A stretch of DNA of 64,000 nucleotides from an uncultured Acidobacteriota bacterium (GCA_963828465.1 CAWHEU010000025.1:64001-128000); one strand, 5' to 3'; numbered from the stretch's first letter, positions 8,073 to 63,144 are shown. Notes: generated by a model not told the origin, from the letters alone. Numbers and translations are program-made.

Positions 8073-8146
<74 letters not shown>

Positions 8147-42032: not shown

Positions 42033-42105
42033 GCCCTCGTAGCTCAGGGGATAGAGCACCGGTTTCCTAAACCGGGTGTCGCAGGTTCGAATCCTGCCGA
42101 GGGCG
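42033..42105 (+). tRNA. tRNA-Arg (CCT), intact; anchors the repeat array
   Basis: GCCCTCG/CGAGGGC acceptor stem, CCGGT-TTCCTAA-ACCGG anticodon arm, GCAGG-TTCGAAT-CCTGC T arm. Confidence 0.97.
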
Positions 42106-42206
42106 CCGAACCCCGGTTTGCCTTGTATTCATTGACTATCTGGCGCATACAGTCGATGTCTTCCGGCCCTGGTGAATCCCCGTGGCGCAGTTCGTAGAGT
42201 TCAACG

Positions 42207-42752
42207 ATGGCGTCAAATGAGCGACGCACCGCCGGTCTCCTCCTGGTCTCGGGGTTCGGATTTCTTATGGTCGCTGCTGTCCTGTTCACGGGAGGACCAG
42301 GCGGACCAGCCTTGCCTGAATGGCAGAGCCTTGCCCTTGGCTTGGGATTGGTCGTGACGTTGTTCGGTTTGGCCACATTCGAACTTGTCGTCCGTGACGC
42401 CGGAGAGCGCGTTCTGGGGCGACTGGGAACGATCGCTTTCCTTCTTGGGTGTGTTTCGTGGATCGTTGCGGATGCCGTCGCACTGGGCGGGCTGCCATGG
42501 ATATTCGAACTCGAACGGAACTACGTGGTGCTGGCCTGCTTTGCCCAGGTGGCCTTGGGCTGGGCAATTCTTCGCACCGAAGTCCTCCCCCGCTGGCTCG
42601 GTCGGGCAGCCATCGGGTGGAGCGTGGTCTGGGCTGCCCTCTACGTCAGCCGGATTGTGGAGGCGCCACTCCCTCTCAACCTGATCACTTTCCTTTTTGG
42701 CCTCTCGCTCCTCCGTCCCTGGCCATCCAGACCCCGGACGACGCAGGATTGA
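42207..42752 (+). CDS. Hypothetical membrane protein (unit 1)
   Basis: Multi-TM ORF with a LPRWLG motif. Confidence 0.7.
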   Translation: MASNERRTAGLLLVSGFGFLMVAAVLFTGGPGGPALPEWQSLALGLGLVVTLFGLATFELVVRDAGERVLGRLGTIAFLLGCVSWIVADAVALGGLPWIFELERNYVVLACFAQVALGWAILRTEVLPRWLGRAAIGWSVVWAALYVSRIVEAPLPLNLITFLFGLSLLRPWPSRPRTTQD

Positions 42753-42908
42753 ATAACGCGATCCGGCCTCACGCCCGATCTGGGGTAGATGGGCCAACCC
42801 GGGGCAGCCCATTTTCGAAATGGGGTCAACCATCCTTGGCCTGCCGGAGGTGTTTGGTTGTCCGGATCACCCCGACCAGACGGCCTCGGCGGCGTAAGGT
42901 GCGACAGG

Positions 42909-44025
42909 ATGGAGAATCGGGGATTTCTTCTGATCGCCGATATCACCGGATACACGGTTTACCTAAGCCAATCCGAACTCGCGGCATGCCCAGGGAACGC
43001 TCAGCCAGCTGCTTCGAGCTGCTGATCGAACACACCCGACCGCCGCTTCAGATATCGAGCCTGGAGGGAGATGCCGTCTTGAGCTACGCGGTCGGAGGCT
43101 GGCTTCGTCAGCGGCCAGACCTTCATCGAGAGTATCGAGAGCACTTACATCAGCTTCCGCAGAGCGATCGAGCTCATGGTTCTCAACAACACCTGTCGAT
43201 GTAACGCCTGTGCCAATGTCTCCTCACTCGACGTCAAGTTCCTCGTGCATAACGGGCCGTTCGTGATCCAACGCGTCGGCAACACGGCCCAGTTGTTGGG
43301 CAACGACATCAACCTCATCCACCGGCTGCTCAAGAACTCGGTGACGGCCGACACCGGAATTCGGGCCTATCTTCTCTGCACCGATGCGGCGATCAGAGTC
43401 CTGGGAATCGACCCGGCTTCTGAAGCCATGACCCGCCACCAGGAGACGGTCACCGATCTGGGAGACGTCTCCGTCTGGGTCAAGGACATGCACCCGGTGT
43501 ACCAGGCGAGGAGGGACGAGCGGCAGGTCACCTACACAGAGAAAGAGGTCTTGACCACTCTCGAAGCCGAGATCGCGATGCCGAGGGAACTGGTGTGGGA
43601 TTATCTCAACCAGTCCGAATTCCGCAACCTGGTGATCCAGTCCGACTCCTACGAGGTTCTCGACCGCGAGGCCGGCAAGGTCGGCCCCGGCAGCACGTAT
43701 CAGTGTTATCACGGGAAGATGGTCGTTCCTCAATTGGTCGTCGAGTGGCGGCCCTTCGAGCGGGTGCTGCTGAGCCAGCGACTTCCCTTCAAGGGGCGGC
43801 CCGTCCATGTGCTCATCGACTTCCGACTAACGCCGACCGAGGTTGGAACTCGGCTGACCGAGACCCGCCGCCCGGGTCTCCGGACCCGCGGCGAAACGCT
43901 TGTTCGCGCGGCTGTTCATCCGCAGCCAGCGCCAACGCAGCCAGCGCAGCCTCAACGACTTCCAGGACCAGATCCAGGGTGATCTAGCGGCTCATCAAGC
44001 CATCGCTAGCTCGGGAAACGGCTGA
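42909..44025 (+). pseudogene. DUF2652 + SRPBCC protein with several frameshifts
   Basis: GFLLIADITGYT, LEGDAV, CRCNAC..LDVKFLVH, HRLLKN, VVEWRPF across frames. Confidence 0.75.
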
Positions 44026-44389
44026 AGCCGGCCCGGTGGTTCGGTTCCACTCGGAGCAAGGCGTCGGCATTGGGCAGGTCACGCATGGTGGCGATGTAGT
44101 TCTCGGTCGGCTCGCCGTAGACCTCGAAGCCGATAGGTTCCAGGTAGTCGTAGGCAGTTCGGGCCCGGGCGACGGCGCCCTCCATGTGGGCGTCCATGGC
44201 GTCTGCATCGGCGAAAATGTGAACGATGCTGACCATTGTTCCCGCCTCGTTGGCGTAGAAGTTCTGGAAGACCGTTCTGGGCTTTTCCGCCTCGAGATCA
44301 GGCAGCACCTGGTCCACACTGCTCCACAACTCGCCCTCGCGCCCCTCCTTGATGTGAAAGTGGCTGATGTAGACAATTGGTCCAGACAT
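44006..44389 (-). CDS. Hypothetical protein, ABM-like dimeric alpha-beta barrel
   Basis: IVYISHFHIKEG, VHIFADADAMDAH, FEVYG. Confidence 0.65.
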   Translation of the reverse strand: MSGPIVYISHFHIKEGREGELWSSVDQVLPDLEAEKPRTVFQNFYANEAGTMVSIVHIFADADAMDAHMEGAVARARTAYDYLEPIGFEVYGEPTENYIATMRDLPNADALLRVEPNHRAGFSRFPS

Positions 44390-44590
44390 GACTGCGAAGC
44401 TAGTGCGAGGGACCTCGAGCGCGTCCATGCACCGCTAGGCCCCAGATAGAAACTGAGCGGCTTCATTCCAATGAACCAGGTCAGGTCCTTCAGCTCACCG
44501 CGTCGGTGATTTGCCTAAACGGAGCGGTCAGTAAGACCACGAAATGAAGAACCAGGCCGTCCGGCCCTTCTGCTTCACAGGTTGCATCAG

Positions 44591-44632
44591 CGCGCCCGGG
44601 GCGACTCGAACACCCAACCTCCTGATCCGTAG
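44591..44632 (-). repeat. 3' half of a tRNA-Arg(ACG), att-like scar in inverted orientation
   Basis: Minus strand CTACGGATCAGGAGGTTGGGTGTTCGAGTCGCCCCGGGCGCG; 5' half absent. Confidence 0.8.
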
Positions 44633-44852
44633 ATCTCCAAGCCCTGTCCATGTGTGTCCATGAGCGTCGGCAGAGCCAGAAGCAACGGCCATCGCTTCCA
44701 CCTGCATCCACGGCGGTCCTCGGCGATCCAGAGCGGATGGATCCCGACCATGACCGATTTCGAGATCATCGAAGCTGGGGTCGCCGCCCTGTATTCGGGC
44801 GACGCCGACACCCGTCAGTTTGCCCGTTATCGTCGGTCGTAGGGAGGTGCCT

Positions 44853-45320
44853 GTGATCGAGTATCAGGGTGAAACAATCATCGAACGCCCCGTGGATCAG
44901 GTGTTCGCCTACGCCGCCGCCTACAAGAACCTTCCTGAATGGTCTGATGTGTCTGACGTCGCCATGCTCACCGATGACCCGGTGGGTCAGGGCTCCCGGC
45001 TCAGGATGACGATGGGGAAGGGACCAATGCGAGCCACCCTCGACTTCGACATCGCCGCATGGGAGCCGAATCAGACCTGGAGCTACACAACTGTGCCTCC
45101 CGCCTGGATTCTTTGGGATGCCACGTATTCGGTGGAGCCGATCAGTCCCACCCCGACTCGAATCACCACTCACGGCCAGATCACGCTGAAAGGCTGGAGG
45201 CGCATCCTCGAGCCTCTGGTCCGCGGCGAAGTCGGCAAGAACGAGCAGCTCGAGCTCGACAAACTCAAGACAATCATCGAGCAACTGCCAAGCCCAGAAA
45301 CCGACGACCAAGGAAGCTAA
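44853..45320 (+). CDS. SRPBCC (polyketide cyclase-like) protein
   Basis: GGGAGG RBS; IERPVDQVFAY...NLPEW...LDKLKTIIE. Confidence 0.8.
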   Translation: MIEYQGETIIERPVDQVFAYAAAYKNLPEWSDVSDVAMLTDDPVGQGSRLRMTMGKGPMRATLDFDIAAWEPNQTWSYTTVPPAWILWDATYSVEPISPTPTRITTHGQITLKGWRRILEPLVRGEVGKNEQLELDKLKTIIEQLPSPETDDQGS

Positions 45321-45442
45321 AGGACGCTGCTCCGGCTTGGCTGTAACGTTTACCGACAAGGGTCGGGAGTCTGCTGAAAACGCGTCGTTGACACCTCGCG
45401 AGCTGGCGGACATTTGCGGACCGCCGGTCCAATCTCCCGTTC

Positions 45443-45580
45443 GAAATTGAGCACCGGAACGCGCCGACTCTAGAGAACGCGAAAAGCCTATGTTCATTGG
45501 GGATTTCGGGTGTTTAGAGGCCCGAATACAGAGCGTGTTTCCTAAACCGGGTGTCGCAGGTTCGAATCCTGCCGAGGGCA
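45443..45580 (+). repeat. att-like repeat R2 (conserved arm + tRNA-Arg 3' half)
   Basis: GAAATTGAGCACCGGAACG...GTTTCCTAAACCGGGTGTCGCAGGTTCGAATCCTGCCGAGGGC. Confidence 0.95.
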
Positions 45581-45690
45581 CCGAACCCTTGCTTTCCCAT
45601 GGCCAGTCATTGACTTTCGTGGGCTGGGCTTGTCGAGGGCAGCCACCGTTCAAGCGACGTGGCGCCTCACGTTGCGCTTACGTAACGGCT

Positions 45691-46959
45691 ATGCGGCAAC
45701 CTGAGGGCATGAGGGAAAGCGCTGAGCGGCCGGCGAGCCCGACACATCCGACCGCGCCCATCGCACGCGGTGACCCTGGGAATGGTGTTCGGGCAACACC
45801 GAACCGGCCTTGGATCTGGGTGGCCGCTGCTCTCCTTCTCATCGTTGGCGTCTCATTCTTTCTCTACCTGCTGGCCGACTCCGACTATCGTGGGGAAGAG
45901 ACGCAATGGCCCTTGGGACTCGCCGCGCTCGTGTTCGTCGTGGTCGGCGCACTGTTGGTCGCCCTATGGACCGGCGGCCACCGGGTGGGCTGGATCCTTT
46001 CAGCCACCGGTCTTGCGTTGCTCATCAGCGGGGCAGCCGGGCTCCAGGCCGATGAGGGTGACCTGGTTGGCGAGGCCGTCGGTGGGGCGTGGCTGACGTG
46101 GTTCTTTCTGGTCGGCCTTCTCATGTATGGTTTCCGACCCGGGCATCCGGTGTCGCCTCGGTGGCGCTGGATCGCTTGGATGGGCGTCATCGGCGAGGGT
46201 TTCAGTCTCACCTATGTTGTTAGCGACCAACTGTGCGTCGAACACGGGGACGAAGCCTGTCTTGGCATGGGCGGACAACCCAATCGGCATCCAGAGCATG
46301 CCAAACCCGGAAAAACGGACCCTTGGCCGAATTGACCTTCCTGTTGATAGCTCTTTTTGCGATCTTGGCCGCGGTCTCTCAGGTGGTCCGGTACGTACGT
46401 TCCCGGGGGGTGGAGCGGCTCCAGATCAAGTGGTTCGCCTTCGCCGTCATCAGCGTCTTTGCGTTGATGTTGGTGGAAGGCGCCCTGCGAGATGTGCTCC
46501 CGCTCTCCCGACACTGGTCTGGGACCTACTCCTCGGCTCTGGCAGTTTCCGCACTGCCAGTCGCCATCGGCGCATCGGTGATGCGCTACGGGCTGTATGA
46601 GATCGATCGGATCATTTCTCGCACGGTACTCCTACGCGATCGTGATAGCCGTACTCGGATGGGTGTACCTAGCTGGCCTGACCGCACTCAGCTCACTGCT
46701 CCCTGCTGAATCGCCGCTGGCAGTGGCCGCCTCGACATTGGCGATAGCCGCATTGTTCAACCCCTTGCGCAAACGCGTCCAAGATTGGGTCGATCGCCGC
46801 TTCAATCGATCGCGCTTCGACGCCGAGCGGGTCATGACCCGGTTCGCCGAGTCCCTTCGGGATGAGGTCGATCCCGAGGCGGTCCTTGCTGGATGGGTCT
46901 CCGTGGTTTCGGAGACGATGCGCCCATCCACGAGCGCAGTGTGGGTTAGGGGCTCATGA
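45691..46959 (+). pseudogene. Multi-TM sensor-like membrane protein, frameshifted (unit 2)
   Basis: HRVGW, SPRWRW, RGVERLQIKWF, RYGLYEIDRIISRT, VDRRFNR across three ORFs. Confidence 0.75.
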
Positions 46960-47077
46960 AGGCGGTGCTCCCGTGGCTCCCGAGACGTCGAATCCGCTCA
47001 GATTCGATCAGTCAGCGGGGTTTCGCTCGTCGCGGTCGTCGAAAGATTTCTATCGGAATAGGCGCAAGCGGGAGATC

Positions 47078-47216
47078 AGATTGAGCACCGGAACGTGCGA
47101 ACCTGATAGAGAACGCGAAAACCCCATGTTTATTGGCGTTTTCAGGTGTTTAGAGGCCCGAATACAGAGCAGGTTTCCTAAACCGGGTGTCGCAGGTTCG
47201 AATCCTGCCGAGGGCG
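47078..47216 (+). repeat. att-like repeat R3
   Basis: Same arm; tRNA-identical segment 47172-47216. Confidence 0.95.
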
Positions 47217-47236
47217 CACGATCCGGGGTAGCGATG

Positions 47237-48121
47237 TCAGCTAGCGGCAGCTACCACATCGAGAATCGCCTCAATGACGAGCTGGGGGTCTGCTTCTTCG
47301 ACCGCGTGCCCTGTGGTCACCACGATCTGCTTCGCACTGGGACTCAACACCAGCCAACCCTTCTGGTCCTCGACATTGGTCTGCTCGCCCGGAAACTCGG
47401 CATTGGGTCCATAGTCATTGGAGATGACCGTCACTGGGATGTCACCGATCTCCGTGCGCCCCGCCCAAGCATCCTTCTCTACCTGGAGGTAGTCCCGCTT
47501 CTCGATGTTGGACGGGCTGTCCCAGGCTGTCAGCTCGACGATCTCCTGCGGCGGGTCAACGAACGGGGATGGCGTCTCGACGAAGACCATGCCCGCCACC
47601 TCGTCGGGATGAGCGAACGCAAATCCAGCGGTGATGTAACCGCCCCCAGAAGTACCCACCAACACGTACGGCCCTTCGACATCAGCCGAATCGAGGAGAG
47701 CCTCGAGATCCCCCACTAGCTCCGACAGGCCGCGTGGTCCCTCAGCAGGATCGCTCCGGCCCAGATTCGCCCGGTCGTATACACAGGTTCGGGTCACGGC
47801 GGCGATATCGACCACGGCGAAGCCGTACGAGCTGCTGGTGTCTTCGTCGCCGCCCTCCATGATCACGGTCGGACTGCCCGACCCCCTGCAGCGGAGATAC
47901 AGGCTCCGCCCGCCGATGTCGACAACTTGGTCGATCTCCCCAACGGTGGATGCAGTCGACATCGTGGTAGACGCAACGGCGGTGATGTCCGGGGTAGAGA
48001 CGGGCTCTTCCGACGAAGACGAATCTGTGCCCTCCTCGGCTGAACAGCCGAGGGACACCAGAAGCGCGAGGCCTGCGAGGCCGAGCGCCGTTCTGCGTCG
48101 ATCGATGCCGGACGCCCTCAA
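47237..48121 (-). CDS. Alpha/beta hydrolase lipoprotein (unit 3)
   Basis: SLGC lipobox, YDRANLGRSD, GTSGG nucleophile elbow, TGH. Confidence 0.85.
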   Translation of the reverse strand: MRASGIDRRRTALGLAGLALLVSLGCSAEEGTDSSSSEEPVSTPDITAVASTTMSTASTVGEIDQVVDIGGRSLYLRCRGSGSPTVIMEGGDEDTSSSYGFAVVDIAAVTRTCVYDRANLGRSDPAEGPRGLSELVGDLEALLDSADVEGPYVLVGTSGGGYITAGFAFAHPDEVAGMVFVETPSPFVDPPQEIVELTAWDSPSNIEKRDYLQVEKDAWAGRTEIGDIPVTVISNDYGPNAEFPGEQTNVEDQKGWLVLSPSAKQIVVTTGHAVEEADPQLVIEAILDVVAAAS

Positions 48122-48301
48122 GTCGCCCCAATCCGACCACGGATCGTCTGATTACTCCCCACCAAGATGTCCTCCCTTCACCCGCCCAGGACTGAACCCG
48201 AGTCCGACACCCGCATTCGCAGACGCAGACCGCAAGGTAACTACTAAAGCGCCGCAATGCCGCCTGACGAGTGCGCCTGGTCGTAGTGGATGAGCGCAAC
48301 C

Positions 48302-48447
48302 GAAACTCCGCACCGGAACTGCCAGACCTGGAATACGCGAAAACCCTATGTTCCCCATGTTCATTGGCGTTTTCGGGTGTTCAGAGGCCCAAATACAAAG
48401 CAGGTTTCCTAAACCGGGTGTCGCAGGTTCGAATCCTGCCGAGGGCG
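48302..48447 (+). repeat. att-like repeat R4
   Basis: Arm with a short internal ATGTTC duplication; tRNA segment 48403-48447. Confidence 0.95.
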
Positions 48448-48578
48448 CTGAGCGTGGTTTCCCCTCGTATTCATTGACTTCTACGAGTGGGTCCTTGGGC
48501 TGGAGGGATATATCCCGTTGTGGATTCAGGGCGGAGCTTGGGCCGTCACGGCCACTGATCGCTGTGTTCTAATCGGCC

Positions 48579-49136
48579 ATGTCACAAAGGGCCAAAGGGT
48601 TGGCGGTGTCCTTGGGAGGTCTGACCTGGCTGGCGGGCGTTGCGATCCTGGAACTGACCTTCGACTCGTCGTCGGAAGACGACCTGCCGGTCATCTTTCT
48701 ATTGCTGGCAGTGTTTGCTGGCACGGCTGTTGGCTGGGGCTGTTGGAGCGCATCGCCGACTCTCGAACGCAGGCTGAGCCGAGTGGGCCTTAGGAGCGTG
48801 GCCGTGTGTTCGTTCGTCCTCGGGTTGGGGTTCGGATTGGCCTTCGTCCCGGACATGTTCCTGGCGTTCCTGCTCTCGTACAGCATCGGTTTGTTTCTTC
48901 TACCCGTGGCGTTCTTGGTGTTCGGCTTAGGGATTGCCAAGTCGACGGTCTATCCAGGATGGGCGAAATGGCTTCCATTCGTGGTCTTCGCTGTCGCCTT
49001 GATCACATATGGTTTTCACGCCCTGGCGCGCAATGTCTGGGACCCGAGTGACGCTGTTTGGTATACGGCGCTAGGTCTCGGATGGGTAGTCCTCGGGGCC
49101 GCTATCGCCTCCTTCCGAATTCCGAGCCGCGTGTAA
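48579..49136 (+). CDS. Hypothetical membrane protein (unit 4)
   Basis: Multi-TM ORF. Confidence 0.7.
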   Translation: MSQRAKGLAVSLGGLTWLAGVAILELTFDSSSEDDLPVIFLLLAVFAGTAVGWGCWSASPTLERRLSRVGLRSVAVCSFVLGLGFGLAFVPDMFLAFLLSYSIGLFLLPVAFLVFGLGIAKSTVYPGWAKWLPFVVFAVALITYGFHALARNVWDPSDAVWYTALGLGWVVLGAAIASFRIPSRV

Positions 49137-49403
49137 GCCAAGGCTCCGATTCAGCGACTACCTACGCGAGATGACACAGCAGCACTCCAGTTGATAAGCG
49201 AAAAGGTCGATGTCGACTGCTAACGCCATTCCATTAGCTCGCTCTCACCTTGTGACCTCTCAGCTCGTGAGCCACCAGCAGATAACGGTCGCAGACGCAT
49301 TTCGGAACAGAGCACGAGATGCCTTCAATGTGCTCTCGGCGGGGATGCCCGCAGTGGTCACAACGCGCCTTTGAAGGGTTCCGTGAAGGGTTTCGTCGTT
49401 CCA

Positions 49404-49787
49404 CTATGAGAGGGTCTGGGACTGTTGGAGGCGTTCGAGATGGTCGCGGTCACGTTGCGTCCGCCGCCTTCTCGACCGGTAGAAAAGGCCGAACAACTCG
49501 GCGAAGACGACGCCGATGAGAATTGCGCCAAGGATGAGGACGATCAAAGGGGTCGAGAAGTCCCATGCCGTGAAGGTCACAGTGATGCTGGCTGTGTTCT
49601 GTGCGGCCAGGATCAGGACACCAATCGCCAACACCACCCCGATGATGAGCCCCCAGAAGAGGCCCGTGCCGACAAAGACCCGCTCTTTGGTTGCCGGTTG
49701 AGCGGTTGTCGAGGGTTCGGCTGTTGCGTCAGATATCAAGACAGTCCGATCACTCACTTCGCTTGAGATCGTGTTCGGCTGGCTCAT
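49404..49787 (-). CDS. LapA/DUF1049 family membrane protein
   Basis: ILAAQNT.S+TVTF..W.F..PL.V. Confidence 0.75.
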   Translation of the reverse strand: MSQPNTISSEVSDRTVLISDATAEPSTTAQPATKERVFVGTGLFWGLIIGVVLAIGVLILAAQNTASITVTFTAWDFSTPLIVLILGAILIGVVFAELFGLFYRSRRRRTQRDRDHLERLQQSQTLS

Positions 49788-55092: not shown

Positions 55093-55107
55093 CTCCAAAG
55101 AGCCGCA

Positions 55108-55310: not shown

Positions 55311-55859
55311 GTGAGCGCCAATCGATTCGTGGCATTGCTTCGCGGTATAAACGTCGGTGGCCGCAACTTGATCTCGATGGCGGACCTACAGGACGCCTTC
55401 ACCGCCGAGGGATACCGCGATGCCAGGACCTACATCCAGTCGGGCAACGTCCTATTCGAGTCGGACACAGCCCGAGGCTCGCTCGAGGAAGAACTCGAGG
55501 CAATGCTCCAACGTCGGCTCGGCGTCGAGTTGGTTGTAGTCGTTCGATCACATCTTCAATTGCGCAACCTCGTCGCCAAGTCGCCAAAAGGGTTTGGAGA
55601 CGAGCCCAACCTCTATCACTCGGACGTGATCTTCCTCAAATCTCCTCTCACCCCGCATAGGGCGATGCGAGTGGTCAAGGTCCGGGACGGTGTCGACCAG
55701 GTATGGCCGGGGACTGGTGTCCTCTATTTCGCTCGTTTGAGCGCACGACGAACCCAGACCAAGATGGGCAGCATCGTCGGCACGCCGGAGTACAAGCTGA
55801 TGACGATCCGAAGTTGGAGTACGACAACCAGGCTGCTCGGTCTCTTCGATGAGCAATAG
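55311..55859 (+). CDS. DUF1697 family protein
   Basis: ALLRGINVGG, TYIQSGNV, TIRSWST. Confidence 0.88.
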   Translation: MSANRFVALLRGINVGGRNLISMADLQDAFTAEGYRDARTYIQSGNVLFESDTARGSLEEELEAMLQRRLGVELVVVVRSHLQLRNLVAKSPKGFGDEPNLYHSDVIFLKSPLTPHRAMRVVKVRDGVDQVWPGTGVLYFARLSARRTQTKMGSIVGTPEYKLMTIRSWSTTTRLLGLFDEQ

Positions 55860-56264
55860 ACGCGGGACGAGCCTCTCTCGAGCACATTTAGGCATCTAAG
55901 AGCGCCTCGTTGACCCGTTGATGGGGTTGGTCGGGGTCAGCGGCGCCGGCGTCCGCGGAGGGTAGCGAACGAGACCGCCCCGAGCGCGTAGCGCTCAACA
56001 ACACTGGAGGGGTGTTTCGGGGCCCCGGTAGCTGGAGCGAAATGAGTACACCTAAACGGGATCGAGAGATGTCCCGGAATCGGGTTTCGCACCGCTTGGT
56101 TTATCGAGTGGTCGGACCTCGCCAGCGTTGAAACCCCCAGCGAACTCACGTACGGCGAGGAAGAGTAAGAAGGTCCTTCGGGGCTGCTCTCATACATGCC
56201 ACCTCGCGGGAGGCTGGGAGTAGGGTCGAATGAGGCAACACGCGGAGCCTTGGAGGTGTTCGAG

Positions 56265-57122
56265 ATGGTGACCGATACACCGAGTCCGGTCAACATTGAG
56301 GAAGGCGAACAGATTGCCGAGGCCAACTCGTCGGGCCGCCAACCAGTTGTATTCATTCACGGTCTCTGGTTGTTGGCTTCGAGTTGGGATCGGTGGGCTT
56401 CGATGTTCAAGGATGCCGGCTATGCGCCCCTCACACCGATTTGGCCCGACGATCCGGAAACCGTGGAAGAGGCCCGAGCGCATCCCGACCTCCTCGCCAA
56501 CAAGACCTTGAAGCAGGTCGCCGACCACACCACGGAGATCATCGATGCCTTGGACCAGAAACCTGCGCTTGTGGGTCACTCCACCGGGGGCCTGCTGGCA
56601 GAGATGCTCGCGGGCCAGGGCCTCTCAGCGGCCACAGTCGCGATCGATCCGGGGGTCTTCCGCGGCGTCCTACCCCTGCCAGGCTCCGTGCTCAAGGGGG
56701 TGGGCCTCCTCCTGATCAACCCGCTCAACCGCGGTCGCGCGATCACGCTCACGTTCAACCAGTTCAAGTACGGCTGGGCGAACGCGTTAGATGACAGAGA
56801 AGCGAAGGAGCTCTACGACACATTCCACGTCGCCGGATCGGGGATATCTCTCGCCCAGATGGGCAACGCCAATCTCAATCCTTGGACAGAGTCCAAAGTG
56901 AACACGAAGTACCCCGACCGCGGCCCCCTACTGATCATCGATGGCGAGAAGGACCACACAGTGCCGTGGGCGATCGCGAACGCCGCCTATATGCGACAGA
57001 TGCGCAACCCCGGCGTGACCGAGATCGTGAAGATCCCCCATCGGGGGCACTCACTGACCATCGATCATGGCTGGCGCGAAGTAGCAGACAGGGCGCTCAA
57101 CTTCGTCAAGCGATTCGTCTAA
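56265..57122 (+). CDS. Alpha/beta hydrolase
   Basis: FIHGLW, GHSTGG, EKDHTVP, GHSL. Confidence 0.9.
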   Translation: MVTDTPSPVNIEEGEQIAEANSSGRQPVVFIHGLWLLASSWDRWASMFKDAGYAPLTPIWPDDPETVEEARAHPDLLANKTLKQVADHTTEIIDALDQKPALVGHSTGGLLAEMLAGQGLSAATVAIDPGVFRGVLPLPGSVLKGVGLLLINPLNRGRAITLTFNQFKYGWANALDDREAKELYDTFHVAGSGISLAQMGNANLNPWTESKVNTKYPDRGPLLIIDGEKDHTVPWAIANAAYMRQMRNPGVTEIVKIPHRGHSLTIDHGWREVADRALNFVKRFV

Positions 57123-57277
57123 CCGCACGCCAAACTTGCAGGGAGACGAGAACGCCTTCGAACCGGCGCGCAGGTCGGATGCGTGGGGTTCTCGCCTCTC
57201 CTTTTGGTAAGGCGCGAAGTTGCTATCCCACATCTAGGTCGGAACCGCCCGGCGACCCATCGTCAGGTGAGCGAAGA

Positions 57278-57910
57278 TCAGGGCTCGGTTGTTGCCTCTG
57301 CAACGTCGGGAACCAGGCCCTTTATGTCGTCGTAGCCCACCTCGGCGGGCTTGGCCGTCGGAGCGTATGTCAGCCAGATCACTCCAGTAGGGAATACCTC
57401 GGACCGAGTCAAGCTCAGGTGGTACGGGGTGTCACCGTCATTGAACAGGTGTCTGCCGCTACGGGCAGCCACCGGGTGGACCAACAGGCTGAGCTCGTCG
57501 ACCAAGCCGGCGGCCAGGAGTTGCTGGACAATCGAGATCGAGCCCGGGATGAGGATCCGGCCCACCGACGGTTCGGCCTTGAGGGCCGCCACCGCCGCGA
57601 CTAGGTCGCCGTCGAGCACCTCTGAGTTGCGCCAGGTGAACTCGAGGGGCTGGCGGGACACCACGATCTTTCGCTGGTCGCCAAGGGACTTGGCAAACGG
57701 CGCATCGACCTCGCCGGCGGTCTCCCTTTCGGGCCATGCACCGGCAAAGCTGTCGTACGTGATCCGACCAAGCAGCAAGACGTCGACTGCCTCATAGTCG
57801 TGGTCGACGGCCCGACCCATGTTGTCGTCGAAGTAAGGGAAGTGCCAGGACTCGTCGATCTCGGCCACACCGTCGAGGCTGATGAACAGGGTGGACACGA
57901 CAGTTCCCAT
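57278..57910 (-). CDS. Dihydrofolate reductase-like (RibD C-terminal) protein
   Basis: ISLDG, LLGRITY, GLVDEL.L.VHP. Confidence 0.88.
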   Translation of the reverse strand: MGTVVSTLFISLDGVAEIDESWHFPYFDDNMGRAVDHDYEAVDVLLLGRITYDSFAGAWPERETAGEVDAPFAKSLGDQRKIVVSRQPLEFTWRNSEVLDGDLVAAVAALKAEPSVGRILIPGSISIVQQLLAAGLVDELSLLVHPVAARSGRHLFNDGDTPYHLSLTRSEVFPTGVIWLTYAPTAKPAEVGYDDIKGLVPDVAEATTEP

Positions 57911-58029
57911 CTCAGACAGGGAACCTATCACCGGGGTGCGGAAAGAAGGGCACGATGTCAGTCAGGCGACGGCGCGACGGGTCAGTTCGATAAGGCCGTG
58001 TGGGAATTCACGGCGTTGGAGGACGCGTC

Positions 58030-58478
58030 GAGTCATTCCACGGGCAGCAGCCAGGGCGATCTCGTTATCAACGAACCTCGGCTCGGTGCACTCGTAGTCG
58101 GTGCCCCTCCAACGCACGGACACCTCAGAGGACTGGAAACTCTCCTCGCCCACGACGTGGAACTGACCGGCGACGGCGGAGGCAAGGTTCAGCCCTCGCC
58201 CACTCGTTGCGGGGACCAAGCCGCGTCGCCGCCGTGCTGGCAAAGGCGGTCCACACGATCGTCGGACTCCCGGGCGCCTCGTGGCGCCCAGTCGACGTCA
58301 ACGGCGGCGGCTCAGGAGCCCTCTTCCTCGACGGCCAAGGGAAGCTGATCGGCGTGCGGCACTCGACATCGCCGGCAGCCAGATCACAAACATCCAAGGC
58401 ATCGTCAACCCCGACAAGGTGGCCCACCTCGGACCGGTCGCCGACCTCAACTCGCTACTGGAGTCCGATCGCCGGTAA
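58030..58478 (+). pseudogene. ECF41/SigJ-type sigma factor C-terminal (SnoaL) remnant
   Basis: QGDL..LETLLAHDVELTGDGGGK, VNG..G, IVNPDK..HL across frameshifts; sigma domains absent. Confidence 0.7.
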
Positions 58479-59378
58479 TGAGTCGATCGACATCAGCCGT
58501 ACGTCGAGACCGCGGGCGAGCCCAGGCCGAAGCCCACGTCATCGTCGACTCGATGCGTGCGGGCGGTTGGTCTCGTCCGCGGATCGCGGCGTGTAGAGAA
58601 AAAGCCCGCCCTCCGACGCGTCGACACCGCGAGTAGGTACTATTGGAGGTGAGGAGAAGCCTCCGTCCTCGAGTCAGGACCCCGCCCTTCGATGGATCGC
58701 CTCCCTGGTTGCACCTAGGTGATCGGAAGCTGCTTGCGGCTTCGAAGGAGCGGGACAGTGTCTGGATTCGTCAGCAGGCCGAAAGGCCCATGTCTCCATA
58801 CAGAGATGCCCACGTCTCGTCTCGACCAACTCATGGTCATCGCCCGGTTCCGGGAACTCGGATTCACCCAGAGACGGTGTGAAGGCTGTACCTGGTGTTG
58901 GGCGGTCTGGGACGATGCCGAGGGCAACCGGATCCGGTCATTCCGAAGCGTCGGGCGAATAGCTGGCGTCGATTATGCGTGAAGATCCCTCGCCCTGTTT
59001 CCCCCAAACGCCCTTCCCCGCCCGGGAGAAAGGGAACCCGCCGAGCGCCCCCTGGCGTCATCCTTGCGCGACCGCGCTCGGCGGTTCTCTGCGCCCAGAC
59101 CTCCACCTTCCACGATCGATTGAATGACCCGCAGGCTCGGGTAAGGCGACCCTCGGAAATGGGCAGCAGACGGGGTCTGAGGGACCCCGATCACGGTTCT
59201 CCGGGATGGTCGCCACCACAACCGCCGGACAGAAATTCTACGTACGCGAACCGGGAAATCCCGAACACGCTCGCCCTCAATCGAGGATGATTGTCCAGGG
59301 CTTGGTTCTCGGTTCGTGCGGTTTTGGGAGGCCGTCCTCGAGGGTATGTGACCTTAGCGACCCTCGATAGGAGTGGCC

Positions 59379-59744
59379 ATGGCATTCAGTGTTCGATACA
59401 TCGTTGATGACGTCGACGAAGCGATTCGATTTTACGGCGAGAACTTGGGGTTTGAGGTCGACATGAACCCCGCACCCGGGTTTGCTGCCCTCAGCAAGGA
59501 TGATCTGCGCTTGTATCTGAATGCACCCGGTGCGGGGAGCGCCGGGGCTGCTGGTGGCAGCCCAGAACCCGGAGGTTGGAACCGATTCCAACTCACGGTC
59601 GACGACCTCGACAAGAGCATCAATGACCTTCGTGGTTCCGGAGCCAGATTTCGGGGCGACATAGCGGAGGGAGCTGGCGGGCGCCAGATCTTGCTCGAGG
59701 ATCCTTCGGGCAACCTGGTCGAATTGTTCGAGCCGAAGAGCTGA
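59379..59744 (+). CDS. VOC/glyoxalase family protein
   Basis: VRYIVDDVDEAI.FY, PGGWNRF, LEDPSGNLVELF. Confidence 0.9.
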   Translation: MAFSVRYIVDDVDEAIRFYGENLGFEVDMNPAPGFAALSKDDLRLYLNAPGAGSAGAAGGSPEPGGWNRFQLTVDDLDKSINDLRGSGARFRGDIAEGAGGRQILLEDPSGNLVELFEPKS

Positions 59745-59859
59745 GGCTCAACACCCCTTGGTCGGAGCGACGTCTAGCGCATGGAGCGCCACGCTGCCAA
59801 GCAGCGGTCGTCCCACAGGATCTCGCCGCCGCTGTCTGCGATTCGTCGTTGAGGCGCGG

Positions 59860-60205
59860 CTTGCTCAGGGTGCGGCCGAGCTTGGCGATCTCGACCAGCG
59901 GCCTGGGGACGCCGGCCGATTGATTTCTCACAAGAGCGACAGCTCACAACACGCTATTTTGGGGGCACCCCAAAGCTGAGGAGAGCCCCGTGGGCAGGAA
60001 GAGCGCCTCTTCACAATGCAGGGTGTAGTCGGGGTGTGAATCCGCCTGTCTCGAGTAGGGATCGGGCGATGTAGTTGGTGAGGTTGCGGAAGCCGAGGGC
60101 GGAGCCCCGCAGGTGCTCTATGCGGCCGCTGATCGCTTCGGTTGGACCTTTGCTGGTGCCGGGCGGGTCGAAGTAGGCGAGTACGTCAGCGGCTCGCTTA
60201 CTCAG
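59860..60205 (-). mobile_element. Internally deleted, circularly permuted ISL3 (IS1096-like) remnant
   Basis: LSKRAADVLAYFD..GPTEAI.GRIEHLRGSALGFRNLTNY at 60011-60205; GVPRPLVEIAKLGRTLSK at 59862-59920; IR-like ends at 59966-59987 and 60005-60025. Confidence 0.75.
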
Positions 60206-61170
60206 TTGATCCGTCGCCGGACCCAATAGATGGTGGCGACGATGAGCCCGACGGCGAGGGCGACGAAGATCGCCGTTTCGATGGCTTGGAATGCCCAGAA
60301 CTGGCCGAAGGGGTGGATGGTGAGCACCTCGGCAGAGGCAGTGTCCACCTCCGAGCCGGCGGAGACGATCCAGTCGCCGCCGAGGTCGTTGCGCATCTGC
60401 GGTATATCGGGCCCGAAGGCGATGTTCTCGAGTACACGTGTCTCTGTCGGCATGTAGCGAGTACGTGCCGCCAGCATCACGAGCAGTCGGGTTCCGAGGA
60501 AGCCGACGACGGTCGTCGCCATCGCGGGAAGCATTCGGCCGGTGACGGCGCCGGCGAAGACGCCCAGCGCAAGCGCGAAGAGGGCGTATCCGAAGACGAC
60601 GATGCCGTGCATGTCGAAGAAGATGTAGGTGAACCGCGAGCCCGACGTCTGCATCGCTGGCGTGATCCACCACGTGAGCATCCCGGCGTATATCGCGGTC
60701 ATGACCAGTACGGCGAGGGAGACAAGCCCGATCTTGGTTGCCGCCCAGCGAAGCCGCGAGACGCCCTGTGTCCACACCAGTCGGTGAGTGCCGTGTTCGA
60801 TCTCACGGGCGACGAGGGAAGCCCCCCAGAACATGCCGGCGAATATCGGCAGGGTCAACAGCAGCAGTCCGACGAATACGGCGTTCGGATACTCGCCGAA
60901 GAAGTCGCGTGCCGACTGGGCGCAGCGGCCGACCGCCAGGTCATCCTCGTCTACCGCCCGCGCACCCTCGACGCCTTGGCGGTCGAGTGCATCGGTATCG
61001 ATGACGACCGGCGCGGCCATGGCCTCGGGCAGGCAGTCGGGCAGGCCCAGCTCCTCGAACCGGTCGTGCATTGGCATGCCTGTGCCGACGAAGAAGGCAC
61101 CGAGGACGAGCAGGGCAGCCACACCGAAGAAGAGTTGCTTGCGATGTTGGCGCCACACGAGCCAGGTCAT
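60202..61170 (-). CDS. ABC-2 type transporter permease
   Basis: MTWLVWRQHR, AREIEHGTHRLVWTQ, FW.FQAIE. Confidence 0.88.
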   Translation of the reverse strand: MTWLVWRQHRKQLFFGVAALLVLGAFFVGTGMPMHDRFEELGLPDCLPEAMAAPVVIDTDALDRQGVEGARAVDEDDLAVGRCAQSARDFFGEYPNAVFVGLLLLTLPIFAGMFWGASLVAREIEHGTHRLVWTQGVSRLRWAATKIGLVSLAVLVMTAIYAGMLTWWITPAMQTSGSRFTYIFFDMHGIVVFGYALFALALGVFAGAVTGRMLPAMATTVVGFLGTRLLVMLAARTRYMPTETRVLENIAFGPDIPQMRNDLGGDWIVSAGSEVDTASAEVLTIHPFGQFWAFQAIETAIFVALAVGLIVATIYWVRRRIN

Positions 61171-62051
61171 GCGCTCAGATCCTGGTGGTCGGCCATTATC
61201 TCGCCGTTGGCCGCCAGGTAGGCGAGGACGAGGTCTTCGAGGGTGACGTCGCGTGGCTCCCAGGCGGGTTCGAGGGCTTGTGCGTTGGTTCGGACGAGGA
61301 GCGTGCTCTGTCGTTGCCCGTCGGTGGCGTGGACGACCTCTTCGACCCCGGCGATCGTGGCGCGACGTGGCCCCCCTGGGCCGATCAGGATCTTGTGGGT
61401 GGCCAGCAACTGGTCGGTCTCGGCGAAGACCTGGACGCGTCCGGCTTGAAGCACCAGGAGGTGGTCGCAGACCCGCTCCAGATCGGTGATGAGATGGGAC
61501 GACAAGACCACGGTCGTTGGCGTCTCGGCAACGGCGTCGACCATGGCGGAGAGGAATTCCCGGCGGGCGAGTGGGTCGAGGCTGGCGAGGGGTTCATCGA
61601 GGAGCAGCAGCCGTGGCCGCTTGGCGAGCGCGAGGCACAACGCCACTTGGGCGCGTTGGCCGCCCGATAGCTGGTCGACGCGCCGGTCGAGGGGCACTCC
61701 GACTTTGGGCAGGCGTTCCCGGCCGAACGCAACGTCAAAGTCGCGGTTGAGCTTGTCGCCCATCGTGAGCAGCTCGTCGGCGGTGAAGTCCTCGTACAGC
61801 GGCGCGTCCTGGGCAACGAAACCGACACCGGGCAATGTCCGGTCTCCCGGTTCTCCGCCGAGCACCCGGATCGTGCCCGCGGACGGTCGGGTCAGCCCGG
61901 TGACGCAATGAAGCAGGGTCGTCTTGCCGGCCCCATTGGGACCGACGAGAGCAACGATCGCCCCTGGAGGGATCGCAAAGCTGCAGTGGTCGAGCGCCAA
62001 CGTCCGTCGGTAGCGCTTAGTGATGCCGTCTGCGACGAGCGCGCCGCTCAC
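61167..62051 (-). CDS. ABC transporter ATP-binding protein
   Basis: GPNGAGKT, LSGGQ, LLDEP, SSH. Confidence 0.92.
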   Translation of the reverse strand: MSGALVADGITKRYRRTLALDHCSFAIPPGAIVALVGPNGAGKTTLLHCVTGLTRPSAGTIRVLGGEPGDRTLPGVGFVAQDAPLYEDFTADELLTMGDKLNRDFDVAFGRERLPKVGVPLDRRVDQLSGGQRAQVALCLALAKRPRLLLLDEPLASLDPLARREFLSAMVDAVAETPTTVVLSSHLITDLERVCDHLLVLQAGRVQVFAETDQLLATHKILIGPGGPRRATIAGVEEVVHATDGQRQSTLLVRTNAQALEPAWEPRDVTLEDLVLAYLAANGEIMADHQDLSA

Positions 62052-62443
62052 GCCGAGTCCTTCATGTCGAGCAACCGGTGGAGCGTGGTGTCCACGACCG
62101 CCCTGATGTGCTCGGGCGACAGTCCTGCAGCGCGTGCCTGGCCCACCCAAGCCTCCAAGCGCACTCGCAGCCCATCGAGGGTCCCTGGTGACGGTCCCGC
62201 CAGCGAGCCCACTACATAGGTGCCCTGCCCGTGCCTTCCCTCCACCAGTTGTTCGTACTCGAGCTGGCGGTAGGCCTTGAGCACCGTGTTGGGGTTGATG
62301 ACCAGGGCCGCTGCTACCTCGCGGACCGTCGGCAGCCGGTCACCCGGCTCGAGTCGGCCAAGGCGCAGGGCCTGTCTCACCTGCTCGGCGATCTGAAGGT
62401 AAGTCGGCACACCCGATGTGGAGCTGAGGTGAAAGGCGAGCAT
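62048..62443 (-). CDS. GntR (YtrA subfamily) regulator
   Basis: PTYLQI, LPTVRE, INPNTVLKAY; upstream of ABC genes. Confidence 0.92.
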   Translation of the reverse strand: MLAFHLSSTSGVPTYLQIAEQVRQALRLGRLEPGDRLPTVREVAAALVINPNTVLKAYRQLEYEQLVEGRHGQGTYVVGSLAGPSPGTLDGLRVRLEAWVGQARAAGLSPEHIRAVVDTTLHRLLDMKDSA

Positions 62444-62561
62444 TGTCGGAGTGTACTACAACACTAAGACAAGCCACTAGTCCACTGCGCCTAAACGGTG
62501 AGCCGGCAGATGGCCACGCCGGGCTGTTTGATCGAGCGGGGCGACGGGAAACAAGTCAGAG

Positions 62562-63059
62562 ATGCAGACGAGGGACGTCACCGACATCCTGAAGAAGCCG
62601 ATCAGCCAAGAGATGCTCAACCGGGACATCGTCCGATTGGCGTACGTCGCCACGGACGGCACTCCGAGGGTCGTCCCGATCGGGTTCACCTGGAATGGCT
62701 CCGAGGTCGTCATGTGCACGCCGACGAACGCTCCGAAGCTGGTGTCGTTGCGCCAGAACCCGGCAGTCGCCCTGACCATCGACACCGAGGTCCACCCACC
62801 GAAAATCCTGCTGATCCGGGGCGACGCGGTGCTCGACGAGGTCGAGGGAATTCCTGATGAGTATCTCCAGGCGAGCGGCACCTACAAGATGACGCCGGAG
62901 CAGCGAGTTGAGTGGGAGACCGAGATCCGGTCGTTGTACGACTCAATGGTCCGGATCGTCGTAAAGCCGACGTGGGCGAAGCTGATCGACTTCGACGAGA
63001 CACTTCCAACCCCGGTCGAGCAGCTGGTTCGCCTCCGGGAAGAGCGGGAGCAGGCCTAG
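62562..63059 (+). CDS. Pyridoxamine 5'-phosphate oxidase-like protein
   Basis: RLAY...DGTPRVVPI, KL..LRQNPAVALTID. Confidence 0.85.
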   Translation: MQTRDVTDILKKPISQEMLNRDIVRLAYVATDGTPRVVPIGFTWNGSEVVMCTPTNAPKLVSLRQNPAVALTIDTEVHPPKILLIRGDAVLDEVEGIPDEYLQASGTYKMTPEQRVEWETEIRSLYDSMVRIVVKPTWAKLIDFDETLPTPVEQLVRLREEREQA

Positions 63060-63100
63060 CCGCTGCCCACCTCGTCACACCGTCGCGCCTGACAACGGAC

Positions 63101-63144
63101 ACAGAGCAGGTTTCTAAGCCCGGGCGTCGCAGGTTCGAATCCTG
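63101..63144 (+). repeat. Degenerate att-like repeat R7
   Basis: ACAGAGCAGGTTTCTAAGCCCGGGCGTCGCAGGTTCGAATCCTG. Confidence 0.8.

What the first reader, a model, noticed from the sequence alone, without database searches (positions are those of the whole stretch)
42033..63144. Integron-like cassette array anchored at tRNA-Arg(CCT), with no integrase in view
Seen: an intact tRNA-Arg(CCT) followed by six direct copies of its 3' half, ending at about 45580, 47216, 48447, 50730, 51496 and 63144. Each copy starts at the anticodon arm, and the copies share a non-tRNA upstream arm. The units between them are about 3.5, 1.6, 1.2, 2.3, 0.77 and 11.6 kb and carry unrelated cargo; no integrase, relaxase or phage gene is recognisable. 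Known: tyrosine integrases often cross over in the 7-nt anticodon loop and duplicate the tRNA 3' end, and tandem accretion of ICE/CIME elements occurs. Inferred: one family of minimal non-autonomous cassettes with shared att arms, serially inserted by a recombinase acting in trans, i.e. a gene-capture platform like an integron but built on tRNA att sites.
Basis: partly seen in the sequence, partly recalled or inferred. Interest (0 to 1): 0.92.

Follow-up and report, generated by a model that had tools for sequence, protein, structure and literature searches.

The report
Integrase-less gene cassettes at tRNA-Arg
Behind a tRNA-Arg gene of an uncultured soil actinobacterium lies a row of small gene packets, each bounded by the same recombination-site repeat but lacking its own recombinase, and related species carry different sets of the same packets, so this site is a place where genes are swapped.

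Summary
tRNA-Arg(CCT) (42033-42107) is followed by five copies of a ~95-nt non-tRNA arm fused to the tRNA's 3' half. A sixth copy is decayed. The genome (an Acidimicrobiia MAG) has a second array at tRNA-Arg(CCG). The arm occurs in 13 of 31 genus genomes and 18 of 201 family genomes. Cassettes recur in a different order, at either tRNA-Arg locus. Some are far more alike between species (95-99.5%) than the flanking core genes (82-92%). Soil metagenome contigs show units missing exactly at the repeats. This genome has only XerC/XerD-type tyrosine recombinases and no serine recombinase.

Relatives supply the missing link. A small (~292 aa) tyrosine integrase sits directly behind the same left-end arm. 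It is broken in G134, truncated in G001 and intact at tRNA-Arg(CCG) in G185.

Best reading (0.6): the units are non-autonomous, CIME-like derivatives of an ordinary tRNA-integrating element family, accreted and moved by that integrase in trans. No recombination was observed, and no intact cognate integrase was found at a CCT locus. It is not an integron by definition. It resembles additive flexible islands, tycheposon arrays and CIME accretion, so I rate it a new variant of a known kind.

The parts
42033..42107 (+). intact tRNA-Arg(CCT), the anchor (attL core). It is the only tRNA-Arg(CCT) in the assembly.
   Evidence: Rfam tRNA 69 bits
42108..42140 (+). left-end (P') arm of unit 1, class A, with the TTCATTG motif at 42123-42138
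   Evidence: (D5)
42108..45582 (.). unit 1 (3.47 kb). Contents: small membrane protein 42207-42752 (+), read by eye from the translation; DUF2652-like 43176-43982 (+); unknown 44006-44428 (-); SRPBCC/Polyketide_cyc2 44820-45320 (+).
45443..45582 (+). arm+core copy 1 (P arm plus tRNA 3' half)
45583..47218 (.). unit 2 (1.64 kb). ORFs without a Pfam family (46127-46959, +). Class-A-like P' at its start.
47077..47218 (+). arm+core copy 2
47219..48449 (.). unit 3 (1.23 kb). Alpha/beta hydrolase 47237-48121 (-). No recognisable P'. Also present in G012 contig C15 at 92%.
48302..48449 (+). arm+core copy 3
48450..50732 (.). unit 4 (2.28 kb). Class A P' at 48465-48480; unknown 48579-49136 (+); LapA-domain 49404-49787 (-); MarR 50058-50588 (+). 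Found in four other arrays at 84-92%.
50622..50732 (+). arm+core copy 4. The left third of the arm is replaced, and one base is missing in the T stem.
50733..51498 (.). unit 5 (0.77 kb). Class A P' at 50748-50763 and a single cupin gene 50853-51248 (+). Absent in a metagenome contig whose joint is at 50769->51554.
51358..51498 (+). arm+core copy 5, the copy closest to the family consensus (0.95)
51499..53565 (+). GAF-nucleotidyl cyclase cassette (gene 51568-53565). It is the first unit behind the tRNA in G019 and G012 C15, and internal in G003 and G012 C14 (90-93% nt).
53566..53685 (+). eroded junction. The arm+core is lost and a P'-like remnant remains. A metagenome contig joins a copy-3-type core end to 53685.
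53686..63095 (.). remaining cargo without detectable internal junctions. Contents: cupin, DUF1697, alpha/beta hydrolase, RibD_C, glyoxalase, ABC-2 permease plus ATPase, PNPOx-like. DUF1697 and the hydrolase lie at the tRNA-Arg(CCG) locus in G044.
63096..63144 (+). decayed sixth core copy. It shares the arm-type junction with the 2-nt deletion, has no arm, and ends in the T arm.
   Evidence: (E 8e-9)
63145..64000 (.). still variable between relatives, up to the window's end. Conserved right flank starts only beyond the window, at about 64782 (G012 C15) to 65564 (G044) in window numbering (contig C25 128782-129564).

Best explanation
The locus is a tandem accretion of non-autonomous integrative elements: CIME-like, often single-gene 'cassettes'. 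They belong to one element family of soil Acidimicrobiia.

The autonomous form is an ordinary tRNA-integrating island. It is laid out as core - left arm (P', class B) - small tyrosine integrase (~292 aa) - cargo - right arm (P, ~95 nt) - core. It targets the 3' half of tRNA-Arg(CCT), and a sister form targets tRNA-Arg(CCG).

The units in this window keep the arms but have no integrase. Each junction between two units (P arm - core - P') is an attP-like site.

Inferred: an integrase of this family, supplied in trans by a copy not in this assembly (another element, plasmid or phage, or a transient visitor), integrates circles at the tRNA or at any junction and excises between any two sites. This adds, removes, reorders and exports units. 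Short repeated motifs in both arms are inferred to be protein-binding sites: TGAGCACCGG at the outer edge of P and in class-B P'; GAACGCG twice in P; TTCATTG in P and class-A P'.

Shown: the anatomy, the family, the turnover, and the link to an integrase gene in relatives. Not shown: the recombination itself and who performs it here.
For: 1. Anatomy. There are five arm+core copies plus the tRNA. Forty-five copies from 10+ genomes align with a sharp left edge and 80-99% column identity up to the tRNA 3' end.

2. Conservation of the sites.
- Cores are 98-100% consensus in most copies although they are not tRNAs.
- Arms do not decay with distance from the tRNA.
- Arms are not homogenised within genomes: the closest arm lies in another genome for 29 copies and in the same genome for 2.
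- Across genera the arm is 79-82% identical, against 72-76% for the neighbouring coding flank.
- In genus g35 the core matches that genus's own tRNA variant.

3. P' motif. It sits at a fixed offset in 11 of 44 junctions, against a 0.9% background.

4. Turnover. The same locus spans 6.7 kb in G012 C15 and more than 70 kb in G044 if its two contigs abut. Shared cassettes occur in a different order. The same cassette is found at the CCT locus in one genome and the CCG locus in another.

5. Identity jumps at the att boundary. G019 versus G012 C14 is 82% in the flank and 95% from the tRNA on. One unit is 99.5% identical between G003 C10 and G044 C8, whose flanks are 89-92%.

6. Metagenome joints. 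Logan contigs of soil runs X1 and X2, both of one study (P1), join 42143->51554, 47217->50748, 48449->53685 and 50769->51554. These skip whole units at core ends.

7. Integrase link.
- G134: tRNA-Arg(CCT), class-B P', an integrase broken over at least 3 frames, and the family arm+core 19.5 kb on.
- G001: arm+core, class-B P', an integrase N-terminus with an in-frame stop, then truncation. It is 81% identical to G134's over 37 aa and 51% to G185's over 107 aa.
- G185: an intact 292-aa gene 95 nt behind tRNA-Arg(CCG).
- G044: a 28-aa relic behind tRNA-Arg(CCG).

8. Precedent. The attP cores of actinophages VWB and RP3 overlap the same tRNA-Arg 3' half (PMC13346255, passages).
Against: - No intact cognate integrase was found at any CCT-type array. 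In this genome there are none at all: PF00589 gives only the Xer pair, and the G185 protein finds only those two at 29%.
- Fifteen arm-bearing genomes were searched with PF00589. Only G134 has a hit inside the island, and it is broken.
- No circle or fresh empty site was seen. Contigs cannot show rare forms.
- The observed unit losses could equally come from homologous recombination between the ~140-nt repeats.
- 52 of 76 core ends have no recognisable P', so many units may no longer be mobile.
- All four joints come from one study.
- G003 C10 is an array-only contig whose binning cannot be checked.
Confidence: 0.6

Rival explanations
1. Homologous recombination only. The arm+core repeats are relics of old integrations and now serve merely as portable homology. 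RecA loops units out and in, and swaps them after DNA uptake, without any site-specific recombinase.
For: Repeats of ~140 nt at 75-97% identity suffice for RecA. No integrase is present in this genome. The joints in metagenome contigs do not tell the two mechanisms apart.
Against: Homology alone does not explain several features:
- the sharp edges and cross-genus conservation of the arm above that of coding flanks;
- the near-perfect cores;
- the fixed-offset motifs on both sides;
- the absence of within-genome homogenisation.
Confidence: 0.17
2. Fossil islands. These are ordinary integrase-bearing islands that inserted serially and lost their integrases. Nothing moves any more, and differences between relatives are differential loss.
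For: Decayed integrases occur in G134 and G001. One decayed core (63096-63144) and an eroded junction lie in the window. Half or more of the junctions lack P'. G000 and G012 C15 share units at about flank identity, 90-92%.
Against: Units of 0.77-1.6 kb with both arms and no integrase trace are hard to derive one by one by deletion. Cassettes are 95-99.5% identical between species whose flanks are 82-92%. The same cassettes occur at two different tRNA loci. Arms show no decay gradient.
Confidence: 0.12
3. A host-run capture platform, truly integron-like. A chromosomal enzyme recombines the arm+core sites, so no mobile helper is needed. The enzyme would be the XerC/XerD pair, the only tyrosine recombinases in the arm-richest genomes, or an unrecognised recombinase.
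For: G000 (8 arm copies) and G044 (11 copies) have only the two Xer-type genes.
Against: The Xer pair is equally present in arm-free genomes. A dif-like site found on C18 (and a copy on C19) has no likeness to arm or core by my reading (the motif was recalled). The family has its own integrase gene in relatives. MAGs often lose mobile elements.
Confidence: 0.08
4. Assembly artefact. Repeats caused chimeric joins, so the array does not exist as drawn.
For: This is a short-read MAG with 29 contigs. Related assemblies often break at these repeats. No long read was available.
Against: The copies differ by 7-32%, so they are not collapsible repeats. The adjacencies unit 3 - copy 3 - unit 4 and core - GAF-cyclase recur in independent assemblies. 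Arrays of the same build occur in 10+ other genomes, including ones of 2-10 contigs.
Confidence: 0.03

Closest known systems
CIMEs and tandem accretion of ICE/IME-type elements (definition read in PMC5704250, passages)
   Same: Elements that kept attL/attR but have no integration or transfer genes. They lie in tandem at the 3' end of a target gene, with chimeric internal att sites, and are expected to be moved by a related element's integrase.
   Different: Units here are far smaller (down to one gene, 0.77 kb). There are many per locus: 5-6 here and at least 10 in G044. They are spread over two tRNA loci and three genera. No helper and no transfer genes were seen, and mobilisation was not demonstrated.
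Additive flexible genomic islands with tRNA-fragment direct repeats, e.g. in 'Ca. Actinomarinales', same class (PMC7771536, passages; its Fig. S4 is a supplement I could not see)
   Same: [quoted passage not shown] Content differs between close relatives, and cassettes are shared between genera.
   Different: That paper's passages name no conserved non-tRNA arm and no integrase (the word occurs 0 times in its main text). Here a ~95-nt arm, a second arm and a cognate integrase lineage are defined.
Tycheposons and their island arrays in Prochlorococcus (bioRxiv 10.1101/2020.12.28.424599, passages)
   Same: Tyrosine-recombinase elements at tRNA genes. Neighbouring elements are separated only by a partial tRNA, incoming elements push older ones inward, and remnants are scattered in islands.
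   Different: No tycheposon-type replication module or integrase was found. The host phylum differs. Here most units carry no integrase at all yet keep both arms.
Actinophage and actinomycete-element att sites in tRNA-Arg (VWB, RP3)
   Same: The annotated attP cores of VWB and RP3 overlap the same 3' half of tRNA-Arg, at query positions 92-134 and 78-131. VWB integrates within a 46-bp tRNA-Arg segment (PMC13346255, passages).
   Different: Only the core matches, not the arms. VWB's integrase is 427 aa and lies on the other side of the core.
Integrons
   Same: An array of mostly small accessory-gene cassettes, each ending in a conserved recombination site, beside a fixed anchor.
   Different: There is no integrase beside the anchor. 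Sites are tRNA-derived double-strand att sites without a supported hairpin. Cassettes are in both orientations and many have several genes.
pdif modules / IMEX elements moved by host XerCD (recalled, no paper read)
   Same: Recombinase-less modules bounded by recombination sites and moved by an enzyme encoded elsewhere.
   Different: The sites here are not dif-like.

Membership tests
Integron | intI-type tyrosine recombinase gene next to the primary site (attI) | tested here: not met
   PF00589 gives 2 hits in the genome, on contigs C10 and C18 and none on C25. Both score best to XerD/XerC models. 56 nt separate the tRNA from a conserved flank gene.
Integron | attC sites: imperfect inverted repeats that fold as single strands | tested here: not met
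   RNAalifold on 47 distinct copies, both strands. Apart from the tRNA-derived anticodon and T stems it predicts only invariant short helices, and the only compensatory change is in the tRNA T stem.
Integron | promoterless cassettes co-oriented behind a common promoter | tested here: not met
   Genes lie on both strands within and between units. No promoter-like site lies in the arms.
CIME / tandem accretion | element flanked by att sites made by site-specific integration | tested here: met
   Each unit is bounded by tRNA 3'-half cores with a P arm on one side and, in part, P' on the other.
CIME / tandem accretion | no integrase or transfer genes in the element | tested here: met
CIME / tandem accretion | derived from an autonomous element of the same att family | tested here: inconclusive
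   Integrase-bearing members with the same arms exist in G134 and G001 but are decayed. An intact one was seen only at the CCG locus of G185. Derivation of each unit is inferred.
CIME / tandem accretion | excision and transfer when a related element supplies integrase | not testable with these tools
   Only contigs were available. No helper was found.
Tyrosine-integrase att site in a tRNA gene | identity block from the anticodon arm to the 3' end that regenerates the tRNA | tested here: met
   The tRNA is intact and single-copy. The same core is used by VWB and RP3.
Tyrosine-integrase att site in a tRNA gene | cognate integrase gene adjacent to the site | tested here: not met
   Not in this genome. 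Met in relatives G134 (broken), G001 (truncated) and G185 (intact, CCG locus).
Additive flexible genomic island | same position in relatives with different cassette content, next to a tRNA with tRNA-fragment repeats | tested here: met
Tycheposon | tycheposon-type integrase with replication or packaging module | not tested
   No tycheposon sequence was compared. No replication gene was seen in the ORFs scanned.
IMEX / pdif module | dif-like XerC/XerD site at the borders | tested here: not met
   The dif-like sequence of this genome (C18, C19) is unlike arm, core or P' by my reading. The motif used was recalled.

The most novel reading that the evidence does not exclude
The arm+core repeats work as the attC-equivalents of a chromosomal, tRNA-anchored gene-capture system that keeps running in genomes with no dedicated integrase. 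The recombination would be done by the host XerC/XerD pair or by an enzyme of no recognised family. Soil Acidimicrobiia would then own a second, independently evolved integron-like machine.
Probability: 0.08. Interest if true: 0.9.

Novelty: new variant of a known kind. Interest (0 to 1): 0.55.

Why it matters
Arrays of cassettes separated by tRNA fragments are reported in several free-living bacteria, often with no integrase in sight, and how they grow is unsettled.

Here the parts needed to test that are defined in one uncultured soil lineage:
- both att arms with candidate binding motifs;
- two target tRNAs;
- a set of single-gene units that keep the arms;
- evidence of recent exchange between species;
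- the small integrase lineage that belongs to the arms.

This gives a concrete, assayable model of how non-autonomous cassettes could build a flexible genomic island. It also gives a sequence profile with which such arrays can be found in metagenomes.

Tried and rejected
1. Integrase in cis. The contig beyond the window and the whole genome hold none besides the Xer pair. There is no resolvase-type recombinase.

2. Hidden recombinase among cargo.
- I clustered ORFs from 18 array stretches.
- The recurrent families were a GAF-cyclase, an ECF sigma factor with DUF6596, a short-chain dehydrogenase, a beta-lactamase-fold protein, and spurious frames across the arm.
- The region between the flank gene and the tRNA in relatives holds a 704-aa membrane protein and a Ppx/GppA protein, not a recombinase.
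- The minus-strand ORF 42213-42833 that I first scanned is not a gene. The plus-strand membrane protein is.

3. Helper in public collections.
- Five pattern scans of viral contigs gave only chance hits in 30-38% GC DNA or nothing.
- Plasmid and phage collections match only the tRNA core.
Five contigs truly carry the arm, and 10 ORFs on them showed no integrase. This is no evidence of absence.

4. A 398-aa integrase beside tRNA-Arg(CCT) in another genus (G047) bounds a classical 30.8-kb island with a different arm. Its homologues occur in arm-free genus members and not in G000, G003, G044, G008 or G020. I rejected it as the cognate enzyme.

5. Structured RNA, promoter or terminator in the arm. 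Rfam finds only the tRNA. No promoter or terminator pattern lies in the arms. No covariation was found. An ATG-led frame through arm and core is not conserved, because the start is lost in copy 5 and one C26 copy (read).

6. Motif counts near other integrases were uninformative.

7. Decay gradient along the array: none.

8. Sequencing runs. The best holders have 0.10-0.47 of the sampled words, and all are soil or similar metagenomes kept as contigs. Parts without cover and small shares are not used as evidence. No circle-type joint was listed.

10. Supplementary files were not opened. Fig. S4 of PMC7771536 and the supplementary documents of the tycheposon preprint may show comparable arrays.

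11. Unpublished genomes. The tallies include genomes flagged unpublished (G018, G027, G038, G042, G043). G042 is one of the 13 of 31 and of the 18 of 201 arm-positive genomes. No sequence was fetched from them, and no other claim rests on them.

Full report
**What is in the window.**
ARAGORN finds tRNA-Arg(CCT) at 42033-42107. It is the only gene with that anticodon in the 3.07-Mb, 29-contig, 92%-complete assembly. The repeat finder and an alignment show five downstream copies of a composite repeat, ending at about 45582, 47218, 48449, 50732 and 51498. Each copy is a ~95-nt arm unrelated to the tRNA, then a remnant of the D stem, a 2-nt deletion in the 5' strand of the anticodon stem, and the tRNA sequence through to the acceptor end. 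A sixth copy (63096-63144) shares the arm-type junction but is diverged, has no arm and stops in the T arm. A profile of the five copies scores them at E 2e-58 to 2.5e-51. On the other side of the core, three of the six junctions (counting the tRNA) carry a close match to a second short arm, and the junction after copy 1 carries a looser one.

**Cargo.**
Pfam scans of about 30 ORFs of the array gave these families:
- DUF2652, SRPBCC, two alpha/beta hydrolases, a LapA domain, MarR;
- two cupins, a GAF-cyclase, DUF1697, RibD_C, glyoxalase;
- an ABC-2 transporter pair and a PNPOx-like protein.

Genes lie on both strands. No integrase, relaxase or phage family was found. The whole genome has two PF00589 matches, on other contigs. 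They score best to the XerD and XerC models. There is no PF00239 match.

**A second array, and the wider family.**
The same profile finds three more full copies on contig C26, behind tRNA-Arg(CCG). These have CCT-type anticodon arms. They are followed by a degenerate copy and a terminal CCG-type tRNA half. Cargo there includes PadR, two Rce1-like proteins, an aminotransferase, a PAS histidine kinase, MFS, an ECF sigma factor and a beta-lactamase-fold protein.

Record titles of syntenic loci place the organism among uncultured soil Acidimicrobiia. The distribution of the arm alone is:
- 13 of 31 genomes of the genus, G000 included;
- 18 of 201 genomes of the family, in 3 of 38 genera;
- outside the genus, in a draw of 16 genomes of other families of the order, only the tRNA part matches.

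Arrays of the same build occur in G012 (two contigs), G003, G019, G006, G008 and G044. G044 has the tRNA plus five copies on one contig end and five more on another.

**The sites look maintained.**
- Forty-five copies align with a sharp left edge and 80-99% column identity up to the tRNA 3' end. Identity drops right after it.
- Cores are 98-100% consensus in most copies, and arms show no gradient with distance from the tRNA.
- The closest relative of an arm lies in another genome for 29 copies and in the same genome for 2, so there is no concerted evolution. Other-genome copies outnumber same-genome copies several-fold, so this shows only the absence of homogenisation.
- Between genera the arm is 79-82% identical, while the adjacent protein-coding flank is 72-76%.
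- In genus g35 the core carries that genus's own tRNA variant.
- RNAalifold on 47 copies finds no supported structure beyond the tRNA stems. Rfam finds only the tRNA.
- Repeated short motifs lie on both sides of the core, and TCATTG sits 20-24 nt after the core in 11 of 44 junctions against 0.9% of random 70-nt windows.

I read these as protein-binding sites. That is inference.

**Turnover.**
- The distance from the tRNA to conserved right-flank synteny is 6.7 kb in G012 C15, 22.7 kb here, and over 70 kb in G044 if its two contigs abut.
- The GAF-cyclase cassette is first behind the tRNA in G019 and G012 C15 but internal in G003 and G012 C14. Units 3 and 4 recur in other orders.
- The beta-lactamase-fold cassette lies at the CCG locus here and in CCT arrays of G003 and G019. 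The DUF1697 and hydrolase genes of this window lie at the CCG locus of G044.
- G019 and G012 C14 are 82% identical in the flank and 95% from the tRNA onward, on contigs that hold both.
- One 2.47-kb unit is 99.5% identical between G003 C10 and G044 C8, whose flanks are 89-92%. The binning of the array-only contig G003 C10 cannot be checked.
- Logan contigs of two soil runs (X1, X2) of one study show four joints that skip whole units at core ends: 42143->51554, 47217->50748, 48449->53685 and 50769->51554. A run of another study has loose ends at 42106 and 50748.
- The third of those joints, together with the sequence at 53566-53685, shows that the 11.6-kb 'unit' is composite.

**The recombinase.**
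None of 15 arm-bearing genomes searched with PF00589 has an intact hit inside an array.

Relatives nevertheless give the link:
- **G134 (genus g35).** The tRNA at 164-238 is followed by a ~90-nt left arm (class B). That arm is 90% identical over 63 nt to the left end of units in G044 and G003. Next comes a tyrosine integrase broken over at least three frames, and the family arm+core lies 19.5 kb on. The cargo between includes a type I restriction fragment, a sulfatase and ion transporters. The breaks may be assembly errors.
- **G001 (this genus).** An internal arm+core is followed by the class-B arm and the first ~100 codons of the same integrase, with an in-frame stop and then truncation. It is 81% identical (30 of 37) to G134's and 51% (55 of 107) to the intact gene of G185.
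- **G185 (genus g46).** An intact 292-aa integrase starts 95 nt behind tRNA-Arg(CCG). A degraded CCT-type arm+core and a CCG-type repeat lie 16 and 19 kb on.
- **G044.** A 28-aa relic lies behind tRNA-Arg(CCG).

In this genome the G185 protein finds only the two Xer genes, at 29%.

**Reading.**
The family's autonomous form is an ordinary tRNA-integrating island. The units here keep its arms and lack its integrase. I therefore file the array as a tandem accretion of CIME-like non-autonomous elements, moved, if they still move, by that integrase in trans (0.6).
- Homologous recombination between the repeats can explain the losses but not the conservation pattern (0.17).
- Pure fossils fit the decayed pieces but not the 95-99.5% cassettes or the two-locus sharing (0.12).
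- A host-run platform is not excluded (0.08).
- Misassembly is unlikely (0.03).

**Comparison.**
Cassettes with tRNA-fragment repeats are described for 'Ca. Actinomarinales' (PMC7771536, passages). Arrays separated by partial tRNAs are described for tycheposons (preprint, passages). CIME accretion is described in PMC5704250 (passages). VWB and RP3 use the same tRNA-Arg core. The integron definition fails on three tested features.

What is new is the defined arm pair, the minimal units, the two target tRNAs and the matching integrase lineage in soil Acidimicrobiia. Two literature searches listed no paper on Acidimicrobiia arrays of this kind. I did not search for this exact family by name.

Noticed in passing
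G000 contig C26 about 90400-107200 (locus L001), outside the window: Second array behind tRNA-Arg(CCG). Its end is a composite: CCT-type arm, an anticodon stem-loop cut after GGGTG, ~190 nt of conserved spacer, then a CCG-type tRNA half. The same composite occurs in G046, G006, G044 and G135, so it is old. The left arm behind tRNA-Arg(CCG) holds an inverted repeat containing GTTCATTG.
   Followed up: partly
window 42780-43100: Metagenome contigs differ from the window by single-base gaps at 42782, 42983, 43015 and 43093. The DUF2652 match covers only the last half of the model. The gene upstream part may be frameshifted in this assembly or strain.
   Followed up: no
G000 C18 about 16673 and C19 about 3462: Two copies of a dif-like sequence, found with a recalled motif at 2 mismatches. 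C19 is a 5-kb contig, so this may be a duplicate from a second strain (contamination 4.8%).
   Followed up: no
G132 contig C1 495-16501: Nine to ten PF00589 matches lie within 16 kb at the start of a 2.6-Mb contig. This is an unusual cluster of tyrosine recombinase genes, unrelated in position to that genome's arm copy at 348.6 kb.
   Followed up: no
relatives, between the flank gene and the tRNA (e.g. L229:2569-4683): Several relatives carry 2-5 kb between the conserved flank gene and the 5' side of the tRNA. In G044 this includes a 704-aa multi-pass membrane protein with no Pfam family. Here only 56 nt separate them. The 5' side of the tRNA is therefore also variable.
   Followed up: partly
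window 42238-42262, 48814-48838, 52268-52292: A 25-nt direct repeat lies in coding sequence, near the starts of the small membrane-protein ORFs of units 1 and 4 and inside the GAF-cyclase ORF (D6).
   Followed up: no
genus-wide: Genus members rich in 380-500-aa integrases related to the G047 type (G009, G045, G007, G022, G024, G010) have no arm copies. The arm-rich genomes have none of those integrases. This may simply reflect two subclades.
   Followed up: no
G012 contigs C14 and C15: This genome (8% contamination) holds two copies of the tRNA-Arg(CCT) locus with the same flanks (95% and 92% to the window) but different arrays. It is probably two strains in one bin.
   Followed up: partly
window 8072-8146: tRNA-Met(CAT) on the minus strand. 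Not examined for repeats.
   Followed up: no
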